From positions 1 to 64,000 of IMG/VR virus record IMGVR_UViG_3300034110_001237: a stretch of 64,000 bases of DNA. The stretch is one strand, 5' to 3'. The notes beneath the pieces are model-generated. The model saw only the letters and a list, made by a program, of their open reading frames with translations, had not been told where the DNA came from and ran no database searches. Both the position numbers and the translations under genes were made by a program. Source of the DNA: a virus. Shown here piece by piece: positions 2,520-50,674 of this stretch. The first letter of the stretch is position 1. The number at the start of each line of letters is the position of its first letter.

Positions 2520-3359
2520 ATGTGGCTAACTAAATATTTTAATAAAAAACAAAATAAAGAAAACTCATTGATAAATCATATTAAGGATAACTATGATTTC
2601 GATGAAGTCTTTTTAATTAAAGAAACTGATGAATGTTTTTCATTAAGTATTAATCTTTTAGCGGCATCCATTATTGAGCGTAACAATAGTTCAATGGGAG
2701 TAGTAACTGTTGATCCAGTTCATATAGAAAAGTTAGTTAATCAAATAAAATCAGAAGGTGATTGTTTAATAATTAAATTTTCACGTCGATATGTCATGTC
2801 TACAGCATATTATTATGCTGTTTTGTTAAATAATTCTGAAGGCTATACAATCCCTTCTAGGTATATAACTGATCCACGATTATTTTCTACATTTCCTTCA
2901 CTTAGAGGATTTGACTACAAATTTATTGAAAACTTAATAAAATTTAAAAGTTATAGATATGTAAAAACTAACAACCATATTAACATAATACCTTCTTATT
3001 CCATTCGATTTCCTGTGAAACCCACTGGGTTACTGGAAAATTTTAGAGATAGCTATTCATTAAGAAATCTACAATCAACATGTTCTCGTGATTTAGAAGT
3101 TATTGTTGATATCGAAACCATTGATAAAATTGTTAATTACTCAGTTAAATTATTTTACGGAAATCTATTGTTGAAAGAAAAAAATGTTTTAGAAATTCCT
3201 GATCTTGAAGCTTTCTTTGACGACTTTTTATTTCCTTACAATATGAAATATGAATTAATTAATGAACTAGGTATATCATTACCTTTACAATTTACACCCG
3301 AGTTTTTAAAATCTATGGATGATGATTTTAAGCTTACCGTTGACATGTTAAAGATATAG
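2520..3359 (+). CDS. MxxI-tail family protein, paralog group A
   Basis: GGAGG RBS, ATG 2520; HIKDNYDFD, FLFP motifs; ends VDMLKI. Confidence 0.8.
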   Translation: MWLTKYFNKKQNKENSLINHIKDNYDFDEVFLIKETDECFSLSINLLAASIIERNNSSMGVVTVDPVHIEKLVNQIKSEGDCLIIKFSRRYVMSTAYYYAVLLNNSEGYTIPSRYITDPRLFSTFPSLRGFDYKFIENLIKFKSYRYVKTNNHINIIPSYSIRFPVKPTGLLENFRDSYSLRNLQSTCSRDLEVIVDIETIDKIVNYSVKLFYGNLLLKEKNVLEIPDLEAFFDDFLFPYNMKYELINELGISLPLQFTPEFLKSMDDDFKLTVDMLKI

Positions 3360-3372
3360 GAGAACATCAATC

Positions 3373-28375: not shown

Positions 28376-29584
28376 ATGTCATTATCCCTTATTGAACAAT
28401 TCGTCACTGTTGATCAGATTGAATCTGTTATTGATTCATTGCCTTTGAATAAAGTTAACCTTATTTCTGATAGCGGTGATGTTACGTTCAAAGATGACAA
28501 CATTGCTGGGTTTCGCCAACAAAATTTTAAAATCATGTTTAACACTTTGCAAGAAAGCCTAATCTTTATGTTTTCTAACTTCTCTTTGTCTGAGATTAAA
28601 AGCATTGAATCTATGATGCAATTTTATGTTCGGTTGTTTCCCTATGACTTAATGGTCGAAGCCAATAAAACACCAGAAACTGTTGTGACCATGTATCGAC
28701 GGGACGATTCATGCATTATCAACTTCAAGCTGTTTTCAATTGCTTATCGTTACAATAAATGGTTATTTCAAATCAATGATAAGTATAACAATGATATAAA
28801 GATGTATGACATGAGCTTTAAATCATTGCAAATGGCCATCATCACTGCCATTGATACTATGTTTCTGGATATTTTTAGAGATACATCACTTGTTATCAAT
28901 AATCAACTCGCTCTCACTGTTGCAAACAATCAAACCAATTTTGGTTTCAGCACTATGCGTTATAAACATCTGTTTACCTATGAAACTGATATGTCTTTTG
29001 CCATGCATATTAAAGACTATGATAATTTTCATGTGGTGACAGACAAAAATGTTAAGTCTCGGATTGTGCCAAGGGATGTCATGGTGGTGTCTGGCAACCA
29101 GCGAGTGGAACATAATATTTTGAATGTTGCTAAATTAACTGAAACGCATATTTCTATTCATAATGAATCTATCGAATTGATGGATAAATTATTCAGTGTT
29201 ACTTTTTCTCCTGTTGAATTAGAGTATTTAAAAAAGACCTTCGAAGTTATGCGACTTTCTGATTGTTGCTATCCACGTCAACCTGATACCGAAATACAGA
29301 TTATCAGAGCCAATACTGGAAAGAAAACTATTTTCAATCTAATTCGAGAAAAAATTCCTTTTCAATTTAGAACAGGACGACATAGTGTTTCCATTAGTTC
29401 ATCTATATCAATCGGATTCTATATTGAAGATGAATACCTTTCATGTCAAAAAATTAAGTCCTTTAAAGATGCCTATCATTTGTGCTACAATAAGTTCATT
29501 GAACATGTGAGTAAAACATTCGACATTCCACCAGAAGAAGTAACTGAACTTCATTTTAAAACACTAGAAATGTCTAGTTATTAG
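28376..29584 (+). CDS. MxxI-tail family protein
   Basis: ends FKTLEMSSY. Confidence 0.75.
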   Translation: MSLSLIEQFVTVDQIESVIDSLPLNKVNLISDSGDVTFKDDNIAGFRQQNFKIMFNTLQESLIFMFSNFSLSEIKSIESMMQFYVRLFPYDLMVEANKTPETVVTMYRRDDSCIINFKLFSIAYRYNKWLFQINDKYNNDIKMYDMSFKSLQMAIITAIDTMFLDIFRDTSLVINNQLALTVANNQTNFGFSTMRYKHLFTYETDMSFAMHIKDYDNFHVVTDKNVKSRIVPRDVMVVSGNQRVEHNILNVAKLTETHISIHNESIELMDKLFSVTFSPVELEYLKKTFEVMRLSDCCYPRQPDTEIQIIRANTGKKTIFNLIREKIPFQFRTGRHSVSISSSISIGFYIEDEYLSCQKIKSFKDAYHLCYNKFIEHVSKTFDIPPEEVTELHFKTLEMSSY

Positions 29585-29594
29585 GAGCTATTTT

Positions 29595-48135: not shown

Positions 48136-48164
48136 TTGCCAAAGTGATCGAAATGTCGTATAAT
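48136..48164 (+). promoter_or_regulatory. sigma70-type promoter of the non-coding RNA unit
   Basis: TTGCCA-17 bp-TATAAT with A-tract upstream. Confidence 0.8.
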
Positions 48165-48187
48165 AGTCCCGTTGTTAAGCAATAAGG

Positions 48188-48509
48188 TAATCTTGGGAAG
48201 TTGGCTTAGAAGCAGCCATCTTATAATGAGTAGAGCGGTTGCCATAGGTGTTTGGGATTAAGTGATGGTAAGCATCGGGTTTAAATGATTTAGCGGTCAT
48301 TTAAAGGTATCGGTGACAAGTGAGCCACGGTTTGTCGAAATCGAATCCACATTAAAGTAGATTTTGCAGATCAAAACGCCTCAGCCAAAAGCTCCCAGTT
48401 CTTGCAATAATGTAAGAATTCGCCGTGGTTGTGGTCTTGGTCAAGTAAGGAGGCACCCCAGAAATGGTAAGGCTGAATTCTCTTTTGGCGTAATAGCACA
48501 CCATGATTA
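48188..48509 (+). ncRNA. large structured ncRNA containing a split 23S rRNA H43/H44 (uL11-binding) mimic
   Basis: GTTGGCTTAGAAGCAGCCATC (48200-48220) and GCGTAATAGC (48488-48497) match 23S rRNA ~1059-1100; closed by TAATCTTGG/CCATGATTA; many internal stems. Confidence 0.75.
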
Positions 48510-48530
48510 TGATTGTTTTTGCAACAAAAC

Positions 48531-48599
48531 CTGCCACTAAGGCTGACCTTGGCCCTCTAAAAGCTAAAGGGAACGGTTCGACTCCGTTGTGGTGGACCA
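48531..48599 (+). tRNA. atypical tRNA-like RNA with CUA anticodon and truncated D-arm
   Basis: acceptor CTGCCAC/GTGGTGG, A73, CCA; T-arm AACGG-TTCGACT-CCGTT; anticodon loop CTCTAAA; D-arm AGG-CTGA-CCT. Confidence 0.65.
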
Positions 48600-48609
48600 A
48601 CTTCTAAAT

Positions 48610-48646
48610 AATGCCAGCTCATAGTGATATGATGTTGGCATTTTAT
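48610..48646 (+). terminator. intrinsic terminator of the ncRNA unit
   Basis: AATGCCAGC...GTTGGCATT followed by T-rich tract. Confidence 0.6.
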
Positions 48647-48700
48647 TGTCTTTATTTTATTTTTATGATATACTTATCCAAATTTTTGGAGATCTGTTAA

Positions 48701-49357
48701 ATGCCTAATCCCGATAGAATTGCTCAGTTAACTGCAGTGGCTAATATGAGCCAGCTTGACAAAATTGAGCGGTTGACCACTACCATTAAAAAAGTCTACG
48801 GCATTGATGTGTCAGACGTAAAACTGGTTAAGAATCAAACCGCCCAGTACAAAGCGAAAACATCACTTGGTCCTGCTCGTATCTATGTTTATTCGCAGTG
48901 CATTGATATTAAATTCACATCGACTGTAGCATTTGATGGTCAACAACTCACTTTGAAAAAATCCACGGACGTGATTCAAACTATTTTTGATGACATCAAT
49001 AAACGAACGGTTATTTTTAATGTCGTCAAATTACGTCAACAAAATAATAAAGATGTCCATTTTTATGGTAATACCAAATTCAGTATTAAGATTGTGGTGC
49101 GATTTTCTGCGACTAATCCACAACTGTATTTTAAAGCGACACCTTATTCAACGTATTCTTTCTTTAACTACATGAATGAATGTGCCATGTCGGGTTATAA
49201 AAAGACGCTTGAAGTGTATTATTTGAAAGCTGAATTTGATTCCATAACAGGCGTTGAGCAAGCATTCTCTTTTATTAAAGATTACTTTAAAGGTCGGAAT
49301 CTCACGCTTGATGATGCGAAACGTTTAGCTGACTTGCAGGATATGGTAAAAATATGA
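48701..49357 (+). CDS. MxxI-tail family protein, group D
   Basis: GGAG RBS; ends DLQDMVKI. Confidence 0.8.
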   Translation: MPNPDRIAQLTAVANMSQLDKIERLTTTIKKVYGIDVSDVKLVKNQTAQYKAKTSLGPARIYVYSQCIDIKFTSTVAFDGQQLTLKKSTDVIQTIFDDINKRTVIFNVVKLRQQNNKDVHFYGNTKFSIKIVVRFSATNPQLYFKATPYSTYSFFNYMNECAMSGYKKTLEVYYLKAEFDSITGVEQAFSFIKDYFKGRNLTLDDAKRLADLQDMVKI

Positions 49358-50007
49358 GCATCTTAGATGAAACAAATTCTTCATTTTACAGTGACGGCAT
49401 TTATGCCTCTAGATCTCTATTAAATGAACACTTTAATCTTACATTTTCTAATGTAACTAAATACACTGACCATGACTATAAAGCAGATGGAGATTATGCT
49501 GTTGATATTTACATTTCAAACAGTGATGTTATCTATCTAACTTTTAAAGAAATGATTTCATTAAATGATGGTATCTTGGTATCTGTATTTGATCATCCAT
49601 TGATTAATAAATATCTAGCAGATATGAACGGTTTGTTTTGTATTTTTGATGCTGTTCGATTTACAACTGACGAAAAGAAATTTTTTTATCCTGTTATTGA
49701 AAACCTGAAACCATCCATTGTTTTTAAATATAGTATTCTTAATAGAGAAATGACAATTTCTGTTCAGTTACTTAACACCATTCAAAAAGATGGTGAATCT
49801 ATTTGCACAATAACAAAAAATACTATTATTCAAAATACTTATGAACCAGCAAAGTTTGATCATGTGTATGGATTAAAAAGCCCATTTTATCACAGTGATC
49901 TTTTAATTTATAAAGAAAGAATTTTAAAGGTTTGGGGGATCTCTCCTGACTCTCCAACCATTGACTATAAACAAATGGGACAATTAACCGATATGATTCA
50001 TATTTAA
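49354..50007 (+). CDS. MxxI-tail family protein, group D
   Basis: TKN..IQN.YEP, WGI..DS..IDY; ends LTDMIHI. Confidence 0.8.
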   Translation: MSILDETNSSFYSDGIYASRSLLNEHFNLTFSNVTKYTDHDYKADGDYAVDIYISNSDVIYLTFKEMISLNDGILVSVFDHPLINKYLADMNGLFCIFDAVRFTTDEKKFFYPVIENLKPSIVFKYSILNREMTISVQLLNTIQKDGESICTITKNTIIQNTYEPAKFDHVYGLKSPFYHSDLLIYKERILKVWGISPDSPTIDYKQMGQLTDMIHI

Positions 50008-50014
50008 GGCCATT

Positions 50015-50674
50015 GTGATGACTGATGAGATAACCTATATTGATAAACTGCCTGTTGAATATAATATCTTACAGAATATTGTAAGTAATCAATTTGGACT
50101 TGTTGTTTCTAAATTTAAACAAGCTCATTATGATGGTTATATTGGACAATCTCAGTATAATGAAACAGTTAATATTTTCACAGCACGTTCAGTCTATTAT
50201 ACTTTTTCATTTGAAAACATTATTACTATTGAGAATAATCAAGTTGTTACTCGATTAAATTCACCCGTTATTCAGCTTATTCTGGATGACGTTAATAAGA
50301 CACTTCACATAACAGAAGCTTTGCGTTTTAGCCATGATGGAATCATCCATATTCCTGTTCTACCTAATGTTAAATCTTGGCTTGTTTTTAAATATAATAA
50401 TAAACTTGAATTCATGACCATTGAAATACACTTTGCAGTAATTCGTGAAGAAGGCTGCGATGCCCCTTATGAATTAACCACAAAAAATGTATTCATCCAA
50501 AATGCCTATGAACCATCAGGTTTTAAGAAAATCTATTCCATGACAGGTGAACTAATTAAAGATGATTTAGCCGGGTATCATAGTAAATTATTAGCCATAT
50601 GGGGTATTCCAGAAGATTCTACTGATATTGATTATCACCGATTAGGCGTATTAAGCGATATGATCACTATTTGA
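50015..50674 (+). CDS. MxxI-tail family protein, group D
   Basis: TKN..IQN.YEP, WGI..DS..IDY; ends LSDMITI. Confidence 0.8.
   Translation: MMTDEITYIDKLPVEYNILQNIVSNQFGLVVSKFKQAHYDGYIGQSQYNETVNIFTARSVYYTFSFENIITIENNQVVTRLNSPVIQLILDDVNKTLHITEALRFSHDGIIHIPVLPNVKSWLVFKYNNKLEFMTIEIHFAVIREEGCDAPYELTTKNVFIQNAYEPSGFKKIYSMTGELIKDDLAGYHSKLLAIWGIPEDSTDIDYHRLGVLSDMITI

What the first reader, a model, noticed from the sequence alone, without database searches (positions are those of the whole stretch)
48531..48599. Amber-anticodon (CUA) tRNA-like RNA with a minimal D-arm and alanine identity elements, co-transcribed with the rRNA mimic
Seen: a 69-nt cloverleaf with acceptor CTGCCAC/GTGGTGG, discriminator A73, encoded CCA and a canonical T-arm (AACGG-TTCGACT-CCGTT). 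The anticodon loop is CTCTAAA (CTA at 48557-48559), on a weak stem with a C-A mismatch. The D-arm is reduced to AGG-CTGA-CCT and lacks G18G19. Pair 3:70 is G-U. Established: G3-U70 plus A73 is the AlaRS determinant, as in tRNA-Ala and tmRNA, and a CUCUAAA loop with a small D-loop is reminiscent of tRNA-Pyl. The genes here read cleanly in code 11, so the genome is not amber-recoded. Inference: a conditional amber suppressor, a tmRNA-like alanylated module, a processing signal for the upstream ncRNA, or a decoy for anticodon nucleases. Three MxxI-tail genes (ending 3359, 29584, 30398) stop at TAG, so readthrough would mask their tag.
Basis: partly seen in the sequence, partly recalled or inferred. 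Interest (0 to 1): 0.75.

Follow-up and report, generated by a model that had tools for sequence, protein, structure and literature searches.

The report
D-armless amber-loop tRNA-like phage RNA
A phage-like element carries a real, evolutionarily maintained 69-nt RNA that keeps the acceptor end and T-arm of a tRNA and an amber-type (CUA) loop but has no D-arm; it matters because no such armless tRNA is known to work in bacteria or phages, and its job (stop-codon reader, tRNA mimic, or RNA-processing handle) is still open.

Summary
The 69-nt element at 48531-48599 is real. Its acceptor stem (with U2.G71 and G3.U70), A73, encoded CCA, canonical T-arm and CUCUAAA loop are all present, and eight related viral or metagenome contigs keep them.

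The proposed mini D-arm is wrong. Four of seven homologues break it. Its 3' strand instead covaries with the "variable loop", extending the anticodon-type helix. Nucleotides 8-16 are a single-stranded linker, so the RNA is D-armless. All 19 pairs of the revised fold hold in all seven sequences, and six pairs show double changes.

Standard ARAGORN misses the element. Rfam's tRNA model gives 18.4 bits against a cut-off of 29.

The element sits after a 23S GTPase-centre-mimic ncRNA. In 12 other lineages of that ncRNA family, an ordinary tRNA of varied identity holds this position. One relative (G003) keeps the promoter, tRNA-like RNA and terminator but has no ncRNA.

The four related records are not amber-recoded. 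I found no TAG-interrupted genes and no conserved readthrough extensions.

Best reading: a tRNA-derived RNA under selection, released by RNase P and probably chargeable with alanine, with a role of its own. Whether it decodes UAG is unproven (about 0.3).

First readers of this scan had already noted the same element on other DNA. Those notes had not been followed up.

The parts
48136..48164 (+). Sigma-70-type promoter of the RNA unit (TTGCCA, 17-nt spacer, TATAAT)
   Evidence: 11 of 12 consensus positions. It is conserved in L008 and L009. The stand-alone copy in L074 has TTGTCA-17-TATAAT.
48171..48525 (+). Upstream ncRNA that mimics 23S rRNA H43/H44 (GTPase-associated centre), closed by a long terminal helix. 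It is a separate finding and is listed here as context.
   Evidence: Sequence and fold. There is no Rfam match.
48526..48530 (+). Short spacer (AAAAC) between the ncRNA's closing helix and the tRNA-like RNA. The predicted RNase P cut lies between 48530 and 48531.
   Evidence: The spacer is variable among homologues and N-1 is C, A or U. The cut site is an inference.
48531..48537 (+). Acceptor stem, 5' strand (CUGCCAC)
   Evidence: Pairs with 48589-48595. Pair 6:67 changes A-U to G-C in 3 of 7 sequences. U2.G71 and G3.U70 are invariant.
48538..48546 (+). Single-stranded 9-nt linker UAAGGCUGA that takes the place of the D-arm. Its GG may stand in for G18G19.
Evidence: 8 of 9 positions are invariant. 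The GG role is an inference.
48547..48554 (+). Extended anticodon-type helix, 5' strand (element positions 17-23, plus C24 of the C.A mismatch)
   Evidence: pairs 17:40, 18:39, 19:38, 20:37, 21:35, 22:34 and 23:33 are 100% paired, and four of them have changes on both sides.
48555..48561 (+). Seven-nt loop CUCUAAA (U33, CUA at 48557-48559, A37, A38)
   Evidence: Invariant in all 8 homologues.
48562..48571 (+). Extended helix, 3' strand (A32 of the mismatch, positions 33-35, bulged A at 48566, positions 37-40), followed by the junction G at 48571
48572..48588 (+). T-arm AACGG-UUCGACU-CCGUU
   Evidence: The T-loop is canonical. Pair 44:56 changes C-G to G-C in 2 of 7 sequences.
48589..48599 (+). 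Acceptor stem 3' strand GUGGUGG, discriminator A (48596) and encoded CCA (48597-48599)
   Evidence: The discriminator is G in L008 and L050. CCA is invariant.
48610..48648 (+). Intrinsic terminator: hairpin at 48610-48642 followed by a U-rich tract
   Evidence: -16.8 kcal/mol, z = -4.26. It is conserved, with G.U changed to A-U in L009. The simple terminator scan missed it.

Best explanation
The element is a genuine, selectively maintained small RNA gene that descends from a tRNA and has lost its D-arm.

**Anatomy (shown)**
- A 7-bp acceptor stem with U2.G71 and G3.U70, A/G73 and an encoded CCA.
- A canonical T-arm.
- A conserved 9-nt single-stranded linker where the D-arm would be.
- One long helix of 7 standard pairs plus a C.A mismatch and a bulged A. 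It is formed by the former 3' D-strand, the anticodon stem and the former variable loop.
- A cap consisting of the invariant loop CUCUAAA.

**How it most likely works (inferred)**
1. It is transcribed from the promoter at 48136 together with the GTPase-centre-mimic ncRNA.
2. Host RNase P cuts at 48530/48531. This frees the 69-nt RNA with its CCA end and also makes the 3' end of the ncRNA. In sister phages an ordinary tRNA in the same slot does this job.
3. The free RNA then acts on its own as an alanine-type tRNA mimic. Its acceptor/T-arm half is the kind of substrate AlaRS charges through G3.U70.
4. Its sequence-constrained loop and linker point to a specific partner.

I regard the partner as either the ribosomal A site at UAG codons (weak amber suppression, about 0.3) or a tRNA-binding protein (a non-decoding mimic or decoy, about 0.35). 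I rate 'only a processing handle' lower.
For: **Structure**
- All 19 pairs of the revised fold are standard pairs in all 7 distinct homologues.
- Six pairs carry changes on both sides.
- No helix substitution is left uncompensated.

**Selection**
- Only 2 of 31 unpaired positions vary, against 13 of 38 paired positions and 6 of 12 positions in the 3' trailer.
- Across four related records the element varies at 4 of 69 columns. The three canonical tRNAs of the same records vary at 3 of 77, 14 of 84 and 8 of 74.

**tRNA ancestry and processing role**
- Rfam's tRNA model aligns the element end to end with the D-arm deleted.
- In 12 other lineages of the ncRNA family a canonical tRNA (Met, Arg, Ser, Glu, Gly, Trp or Ile) starts 11-34 nt after the ncRNA. 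Here the gap is 26 nt.
- In five lineages a tRNA also ends 8-14 nt before the ncRNA.

**Autonomy**
- In G003 (locus L074) the promoter, the tRNA-like RNA and the terminator are kept with only a roughly 20-nt leader.
- No ncRNA is found anywhere in the held 192,830 bp of G003.
- The neighbouring protein in G003 is only 45% identical to the window's.

**Alanine-type end**
- G3.U70 is invariant in 8 of 8 homologues.
- A second non-canonical tRNA-like RNA of the same records (G000 113138-113240) also has G3.U70, A73 and CCA in all four records.
- G3.U70 is the main AlaRS determinant, and non-canonical tRNAs that carry it insert Ala at amber codons in E. coli (PMC5389517; PMC9976931).
Against: - There is no experimental evidence for processing, charging or any activity.
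- The homologues form a narrow clade with about 93% mean column identity, so loop invariance is only modest evidence.
- I derived the revised fold from these same sequences.
- L074's element is identical to L009's, and its non-functional flanks are also nearly identical. The stand-alone state could therefore be a recent deletion or cassette exchange and not a long-maintained state.
- Of the bacterial alanine identity set, G2-C71, G4-C69 and G20 are missing, and two homologues have G73.
- D-armless tRNAs are not known to work with bacterial EF-Tu and ribosomes. In nematode mitochondria they need a dedicated EF-Tu (PMC1636415).
Confidence: 0.5

Rival explanations
1. It is a working amber-suppressor tRNA. 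Host AlaRS charges it, EF-Tu delivers it, and it reads UAG as alanine, either throughout infection or at particular phage genes.
For: - The loop CUCUAAA has U33, CUA and A36-A37-A38, and it is invariant. From memory, this is the loop of classical E. coli amber suppressors and the motif that MiaA modifies.
- G3.U70 gives a charging route that does not depend on the anticodon. A stop anticodon needs exactly that (PMC5389517).
- The long helix (8 layers plus a bulge) roughly restores the length of the D-stem plus anticodon-stem stack.
- The element exists as a stand-alone gene in G003.
Against: - There is no D-arm, and a C.A mismatch closes the loop.
- Standard ARAGORN misses the element, and Rfam's tRNA model scores it below threshold.
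- TAG makes up 6-11% of stops in four records, and no gene is split by TAG.
- TAG stops swap with TAA between relatives, and the would-be extensions are ribosome-binding sites, promoters or terminators with indels.
- The second alanine-type tRNA-like RNA of these records has no anticodon-type arm at all. In this lineage, therefore, the alanine-type end does not imply decoding.
- The records are only 50-59% complete, so target genes could lie in the missing parts.
Confidence: 0.3
2. It is only a tRNA-shaped processing and stability handle. RNase P and the 3' trimming enzymes use it to make the 3' end of the ncRNA, and the released 69-mer is a by-product.
For: - Canonical tRNAs flank the ncRNA tightly in many family members.
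- Other members carry degenerate tRNA remnants in the same slot (L030 and L034).
- The acceptor/T-arm half plus RCCA is all that bacterial RNase P needs (established knowledge).
Against: - The anticodon-type helix is maintained by four covarying pairs, and its loop and the linker are invariant. A handle would not need any of this.
- G003 keeps the element, with promoter and terminator, although it has no ncRNA to process.
- Some family members have no tRNA after the ncRNA at all (L005, L012, L023 and others).
Confidence: 0.15
3. It is a mini-tmRNA-like module: an alanine-charged tRNA-like domain without a message part. It would enter stalled ribosomes with SmpB, or compete with tmRNA for SmpB.
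For: The topology is that of the tmRNA tRNA-like domain: an acceptor stem with G3.U70, A73 and CCA, no D-stem, a T-arm, and one long helix leaving the junction. Reduced tmRNAs that lack the message part exist in jakobid mitochondria (PMC3590771).
Against: - No tmRNA call from ARAGORN, even at relaxed thresholds.
- No Rfam tmRNA match at E up to 10.
- No tag reading frame and no pseudoknots.
- G1-C72 and G2-C71 of tmRNAs are replaced by C-G and U.G.
- No SmpB gene in the record, although the host would supply one.
Confidence: 0.05
4. It is a decaying pseudo-tRNA or a chance cloverleaf with no function.
For: Standard tRNA finders miss it, and the single-sequence fold is not unusually stable (z = -0.92).
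Against: Six compensated pairs, no uncompensated helix change, near-invariant single-stranded positions, and a rate of change like that of the true tRNAs of the same records.
Confidence: 0.03

Closest known systems
Classical amber-suppressor tRNAs and suppressor tRNAs of stop-codon-recoded phages
   Same: CUA triplet in a 7-nt loop with U33 and A37-A38, a 7-bp acceptor stem, a canonical T-arm and an encoded CCA.
   Different: No D-arm, an irregular long anticodon helix, and failure in standard tRNA models. The carrier genome uses TAG as an ordinary, rare stop and has no TAG-interrupted genes.
tRNA-like domain of tmRNA, including the reduced message-less tmRNA of jakobid mitochondria (PMC3590771)
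   Same: G3.U70, A73 and CCA. No D-stem, with a single-stranded D-analogue. A T-arm, and one long helix leaving the junction.
   Different: Only 69 nt, with no tag frame and no pseudoknots. C1-G72 and U2.G71 replace G-C and G-C. Its helix ends in an anticodon-type loop. tmRNA detectors do not recognise it.
D-armless mitochondrial tRNAs (mt-tRNA-Ser(AGY) type; PMC9976931, PMC1636415)
   Same: A D-replacement linker, a retained T-arm and anticodon loop. ARAGORN's mitochondrial mode finds the element.
   Different: The setting is a phage of bacteria, not an organelle. The helix is lengthened by pairing with the former variable loop. No dedicated EF-Tu or synthetase is in evidence.
tRNA-like 3' processing modules such as MALAT1 mascRNA, and tRNAs used as punctuation in polycistronic RNA operons
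   Same: A tRNA-shaped element directly downstream of a long structured ncRNA, so RNase P cleavage would create the ncRNA's 3' end. Sister phages use real tRNAs in that position.
   Different: Here the loop, linker and long helix are constrained beyond what RNase P needs, and the element survives without the ncRNA in G003.
Allo-tRNAs and other non-canonical cloverleaf tRNAs from bacteria and phages (Mukai et al., PMC5389517)
   Same: Non-standard architecture, some with G3.U70 or stop anticodons. They were shown to be charged by AlaRS and to suppress amber codons in E. coli when given a CUA anticodon.
   Different: Allo-tRNAs keep a D-arm and differ in the 8/4 or 9/3 acceptor/T-stem split. This RNA has the normal 7/5 split but no D-arm.
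Bacterial and phage Y RNAs (YrlA) with a tRNA-like domain (PMC4201824)
   Same: A non-coding RNA that mimics tRNA and is a substrate for tRNA-processing enzymes. Such RNAs also occur in phages.
   Different: YrlA has a D-arm mimic and a Ro-binding stem, and it has no free acceptor end with an encoded CCA. There is no Rfam YrlA match here.

Membership tests
Canonical tRNA (Rfam RF00005) | Score at or above the curated gathering threshold of the tRNA covariance model | tested here: not met
   18.4 bits against 29 on the isolated stretch. Not reported in the window-wide or genome-wide scans. Default ARAGORN finds nothing.
Canonical tRNA (Rfam RF00005) | 7-bp acceptor stem, discriminator and CCA end; 5-bp T-stem with a UUCRANY loop | tested here: met
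   One compensated pair in each stem. CCA and the T-loop are invariant.
Canonical tRNA (Rfam RF00005) | D-arm (3-4 bp stem, loop with G18G19) | tested here: not met
   The proposed 3-bp stem is broken in 4 of 7 homologues. Its 3' strand covaries with positions 38-39 instead.
Canonical tRNA (Rfam RF00005) | 5-bp anticodon stem with a 7-nt loop (U33, purine 37) | tested here: inconclusive
   The loop features are present and invariant. The stem has a C.A mismatch at 31:39 and continues into a longer helix with a bulged A.
Phage stop-codon recoding system (suppressor tRNA plus in-frame TAG genes) | Genes interrupted by in-frame TAG, or TAG avoided as a stop | tested here: not met
   TAG is 6-11% of stops in G000-G003. 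Only two TAG-spanning frames turned up: one is antisense to a gene on the + strand and the other is very short. The records are 50-59% complete.
Bacterial AlaRS substrates (tRNA-Ala identity set A73, G2-C71, G3.U70, G4-C69, G20; PMC9976931) | G3.U70 wobble pair | tested here: met
   G at 48533 pairs with U at 48593. Invariant in 8 of 8 homologues.
Bacterial AlaRS substrates (tRNA-Ala identity set A73, G2-C71, G3.U70, G4-C69, G20; PMC9976931) | A73, G2-C71, G4-C69 and G20 | tested here: not met
   A73 is present in 6 of 8 homologues (G in L008 and L050). Pair 2:71 is U.G and pair 4:69 is C-G. There is no D-loop, so there is no G20.
Bacterial AlaRS substrates (tRNA-Ala identity set A73, G2-C71, G3.U70, G4-C69, G20; PMC9976931) | Actual alanylation | not testable with these tools
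   Needs an in vitro charging assay.
tmRNA | Message-like domain with a tag reading frame and pseudoknots; recognised by tmRNA models | tested here: not met
   The RNA is only 69 nt. ARAGORN tmRNA mode, also at relaxed thresholds, finds nothing. No Rfam tmRNA match at E up to 10.
tmRNA | tRNA-like domain with G3.U70, A73 and CCA and without a D-stem | tested here: met
   (architecture only).
tRNA-Pyl | A partner PylRS, an atypical T-loop without the canonical sequence, and a D-stem with a 5-nt loop | tested here: not met
   No PylS C-terminal domain in G000-G003. The T-loop is the canonical UUCGA. The D-stem is not supported. The list of tRNA-Pyl features is from memory.
RNase P substrate / tRNA-type processing handle | Coaxial acceptor/T-arm helix of 12 bp with a 3' RCCA | tested here: met
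   7 + 5 bp followed by ACCA (GCCA in two homologues). Cleavage itself cannot be tested here.

The most novel reading that the evidence does not exclude
A phage that uses the standard genetic code carries a D-armless, alanine-accepting tRNA that works on bacterial ribosomes and reads UAG. It would be the first armless elongator tRNA outside organelles, delivered as a mobile RNA cassette together with a decoy of the ribosome's GTPase-associated centre. A variant of this reading: the pair (GTPase-centre mimic plus uncharged tRNA mimic) rebuilds the platform that stringent-response or defence factors recognise on the ribosome, and so diverts them.
Probability: 0.25. Interest if true: 0.85.

Novelty: new variant of a known kind. 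Interest (0 to 1): 0.62.

Why it matters
Bacterial translation is thought to require the full L-shaped tRNA core. Armless tRNAs are known only from animal mitochondria, where elongation factors and synthetases have co-evolved with them. A covariation-supported armless tRNA-like RNA in a phage, with an amber-type loop and the main alanine determinant, raises two possibilities. It may be a new way for a virus to alter stop-codon reading, or it may be a new class of tRNA mimic.

It also bears on the large, undescribed family of phage RNAs that copy the uL11/GTPase-associated centre of 23S rRNA. These RNAs are built into tRNA operons and are probably matured by tRNA-processing enzymes.

If the RNA proves chargeable and active, a compact 69-nt anticodon-independent suppressor scaffold would also interest genetic-code engineering.

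Tried and rejected
**Kissing interaction between the CUCUAAA loop and the H43-like loop of the ncRNA (UUAGA).** Five complementary bases exist in the window. L008 and L009 change that loop to UUAAA without any compensating change in the tRNA-like loop. Rejected.

**Antisense targeting by the loop.** Complements of the loop (TTTAGAGG and similar) are not enriched in the genome and are not placed at gene starts. Rejected.

**Alternative minimum-free-energy fold of the central region.** Substitutions in L041 and L042 contradict it. Rejected in favour of the covariation-supported fold.

**Programmed readthrough of the three TAG-ending 'MxxI' genes.** Not supported.

**Integration-site remnant (hybrid tRNA at a prophage end).** The element is internal, has its own promoter and terminator, and covaries in both halves. 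Rejected.

**Descent from a phage tRNA-Arg(UCU).** The best non-self hit of my model is a tRNA-Arg(UCU) that also starts C1-G72 and U2.G71 (28 bits). This is suggestive only.

**Search for more distant homologues.**
- An exact 3'-half pattern gave 0 hits.
- A linker-plus-T-loop pattern in IMG/VR gave only the known clade plus one chance hit in a GC-rich coding region.
- Two scans of 185,579 prokaryote genomes gave 0 hits.

**Phage-encoded partners.** SmpB, uL11, CCA-adding enzyme, AAA_33 kinase, PylS and AlaRS were not found in the held records.

**Access to other records.** The 1.86-Mb metagenome contig behind L033 could not be searched. Relatives cannot be drawn for a virus record.

**PHROG and Pfam scans of ten large ORFs of the window.** One PHROG of unknown function and no Pfam family.

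Full report
**What is there**

The window belongs to an IMG/VR 'provirus' record of 161,697 bp (G000). It is 34% G+C and CheckV estimates it to be 50% complete. Few of its large ORFs match known families. It does encode two RNA ligases and tail-like domains.

At 48136-48164 lies a near-consensus promoter. After it come, in order:
- an ORF-free structured RNA of about 355 nt that copies 23S rRNA H43/H44 (48171-48525);
- five spacer bases;
- the 69-nt element (48531-48599);
- a strong hairpin terminator (48610-48642).

**Checking the observation**

Default ARAGORN, relaxed bacterial settings and Rfam at gathering threshold do not. On the isolated stretch Rfam's tRNA model gives 18.4 bits (threshold 29) and aligns the element end to end with the D-arm skipped. 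The single-sequence fold is not unusually stable, so the case rests on comparison with relatives.

**Homologues and structure**

I used the downstream 218-aa gene to reach relatives. This recovered six further distinct copies of the element: L008, L009, L041, L042, L050 and L051. The ungapped alignment has 15 variable columns.
- Thirteen lie in helices. Twelve of these form six doubly changed pairs and the thirteenth keeps its pair (G.U to A-U).
- The doubly changed pairs are acceptor 6:67 (A-U/G-C), T-stem 44:56 (C-G/G-C), and four pairs in the anticodon-type helix.
- Positions 18:39 and 19:38 covary through three and two Watson-Crick combinations respectively. The 3' 'D-strand' therefore pairs with the 'variable loop'.
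- With this revision, 100% of 133 cells are standard pairs, against 94% for the cloverleaf.

The RNA is thus a three-way junction:
- a 7-bp acceptor stem;
- a 9-nt single-stranded linker UAAGGCUGA;
- one helix of seven pairs plus a C.A mismatch and a bulged A, capped by CUCUAAA;
- one junction G;
- the T-arm;
- ACCA.

Only 2 of the 31 unpaired positions vary: one linker base and the discriminator. By comparison, 13 of the 38 paired positions vary, and so do half of the 3' trailer positions. Among four related records the element changes at 4 of 69 columns, within the range of their three true tRNAs. One caveat applies: I derived the revised fold from these same sequences, and the clade is shallow.

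**Context in the wider ncRNA family**

Pattern scans for the conserved 3' part of the ncRNA gave four named phages or IMG/VR contigs and 31 metagenome loci. They gave none in 185,579 prokaryote genomes.
- In 12 distinct lineages a canonical tRNA starts 11-34 nt after the ncRNA: Met four times, Arg-UCU twice, Ser twice, and Glu, Gly, Trp and Ile once each.
- In five lineages a tRNA also ends 8-14 nt before the ncRNA.
- The ncRNA is therefore built into tRNA operons, and tRNA-processing enzymes probably cut its ends.
- The element studied here occupies that tRNA slot, 26 nt after the conserved motif.
- Other members carry degenerate tRNA remnants in the slot (L030, L034) or nothing tRNA-like (L005 and others).

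**Autonomy**

A pattern built from the element itself found a fourth record, G003 (locus L074).
- There the promoter (TTGTCA-17-TATAAT), a roughly 20-nt leader, the element (identical to L009's) and the terminator form a unit without the ncRNA.
- No ncRNA is detectable in the held 192,830 bp of G003.
- The neighbouring protein is only 45-46% identical to those of the window and L009. The cassette has therefore moved or been exchanged between diverged genomes, and it persists without the ncRNA.
- Because even the non-functional flanks are nearly identical to L009's, this event may be recent.
- More distant relatives (L043, L046, L047) lack the whole cassette.

**Is it an amber suppressor?**
- Across G000-G003, TAG ends 6-11% of ORFs of at least 80 aa.
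- In G000, no plausible gene is interrupted by TAG.
- TAG stops alternate with TAA or sense codons in relatives. The sequences after them are ribosome-binding sites, promoters or terminators with frame-breaking indels.
The third is TAA in G001. One tail is MSSY, not MxxI.
- None of the four records encodes PylS, AlaRS, SmpB, uL11 or a CCA-adding enzyme.

So nothing in the held halves of these genomes requires UAG decoding. On the other side:
- the loop has all the features of a decoding loop and is invariant;
- the helix length roughly restores the D-stem plus anticodon-stem stack;
- G3.U70 offers charging that does not depend on the anticodon. Non-canonical tRNAs with G3.U70 do insert Ala at amber codons in E. 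coli (PMC5389517).

Only two of the five bacterial alanine determinants are present (PMC9976931).

**A second alanine-type tRNA-like RNA**

The same four records carry another non-canonical RNA of 103-125 nt (G000 113138-113240). It has a G3.U70 acceptor stem, A73, CCA and a T-arm, and complex arms in place of the D and anticodon arms. This makes the G3.U70 end look deliberate in this lineage. It also shows that such an end is used here on RNAs that cannot decode.

**Verdict**

The element is real, under selection and derived from a tRNA, but it is not a canonical tRNA. I take processing by RNase P and an independent role as an alanine-type tRNA mimic as the best-supported mechanism (0.5). Within that I rate UAG decoding at about 0.3, a non-decoding mimic or decoy at about 0.35, and a pure processing handle at about 0.15.

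I found no description of such an RNA in Rfam 15 or in six full-text searches of the literature. First readers of this scan had noted the same element on other DNA (e1-5757449, e1-5757459, e1-5784933), without follow-up.

Noticed in passing
window 48171-48525; loci L001-L040: The upstream ncRNA copies 23S H43/H44. It belongs to a large family found only in phage and metagenome contigs (0 hits in 185,579 prokaryote genomes) and is absent from Rfam 15. Its length ranges from about 110 to 350 nt because of a variable insertion, and tRNAs often flank it tightly on both sides.
   Followed up: partly
G000:C1:113138-113240 (L067:1443-1545): A second non-canonical tRNA-like RNA with its own promoter. 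It has acceptor GCGGAUG/CAUCUGC with G3.U70, A73, CCA and a T-arm, and complex arms that include a GAGCGUAAUAGG motif resembling H44. It is conserved in G001-G003, with a hairpin insertion in G002 and G003.
   Followed up: partly
G000:C1:~113290-113780 (L067:1590-2080): Two paralogous structured RNAs of about 200 nt, each behind its own TATAAT promoter. They are conserved at 89-94% in G001 and G002 and have no Rfam match.
   Followed up: partly
G000:C1:~113787-113960 (L067:2092-2266): A tRNA-like RNA of about 175 nt with several internal hairpins (fold z = -3.5). It ends GCAGG-UUCGAUU-CCUGC, UUAGGGU, ACCA, and contains AAGGAGG followed by a 12-codon ORF. It is present in G000 but not at the corresponding position in G001 or G002.
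   Followed up: no
G002:C1:88840-88913 and G003:C1:128160-128233: A further 74-nt tRNA-like gene with a normal D-arm and T-arm but what appears to be a 6-nt anticodon loop (GUUGUA). ARAGORN does not call it.
   Followed up: no
G000:C1:74223-75308 and 87764-89050: Two RNA ligase genes (Pfam RNA_ligase PF09414 and T4 Rnl1-type PF09511). They suggest that this element repairs broken tRNAs, and therefore that its hosts use tRNA-cutting defences.
   Followed up: no
L011 and L036 (metagenome contigs of 226 kb and 12.7 kb): Here the GTPase-centre-mimic ncRNA follows a tRNA-Ala by 12 nt. Directly after it comes an ORF whose start (MARITSEDAVAQVGNRFDL...) looks like the omega subunit of RNA polymerase.
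   Followed up: no
L030:~190-260 and L034:~500-545: Other family members carry degenerate tRNA remnants after the ncRNA. One is a 69-nt cloverleaf with a UAA-anticodon loop, a poor acceptor stem and no CCA, whose T-arm is nearly identical to the window's. The other is the 5' two-thirds of a tRNA-Gly(UCC)-like sequence.
   Followed up: partly
window 3357-3362 and 29582-29587: The TAG stops of two genes overlap the ribosome-binding site of the next gene (TAGGAG). This explains the choice of TAG there.
   Followed up: yes
window 48701-50674: Three tandem paralogous genes of 217-219 aa, of unknown family, follow the RNA cassette. Relatives that lack the cassette keep this gene cluster.
   Followed up: partly
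L043:1872-2348, L046 and L047: In more distant relatives (55-57% identity in the downstream protein) a 158-aa gene on the opposite strand replaces the whole ncRNA plus tRNA-like cassette. The cassette is therefore an accessory, exchangeable module.
   Followed up: partly
window 48207-48213 compared with L008 and L009: The H43-like loop reads UUAGAAG in the window but UUAAAAG in close relatives. This changes the base equivalent to G1068, next to the A1067 position.
   Followed up: no
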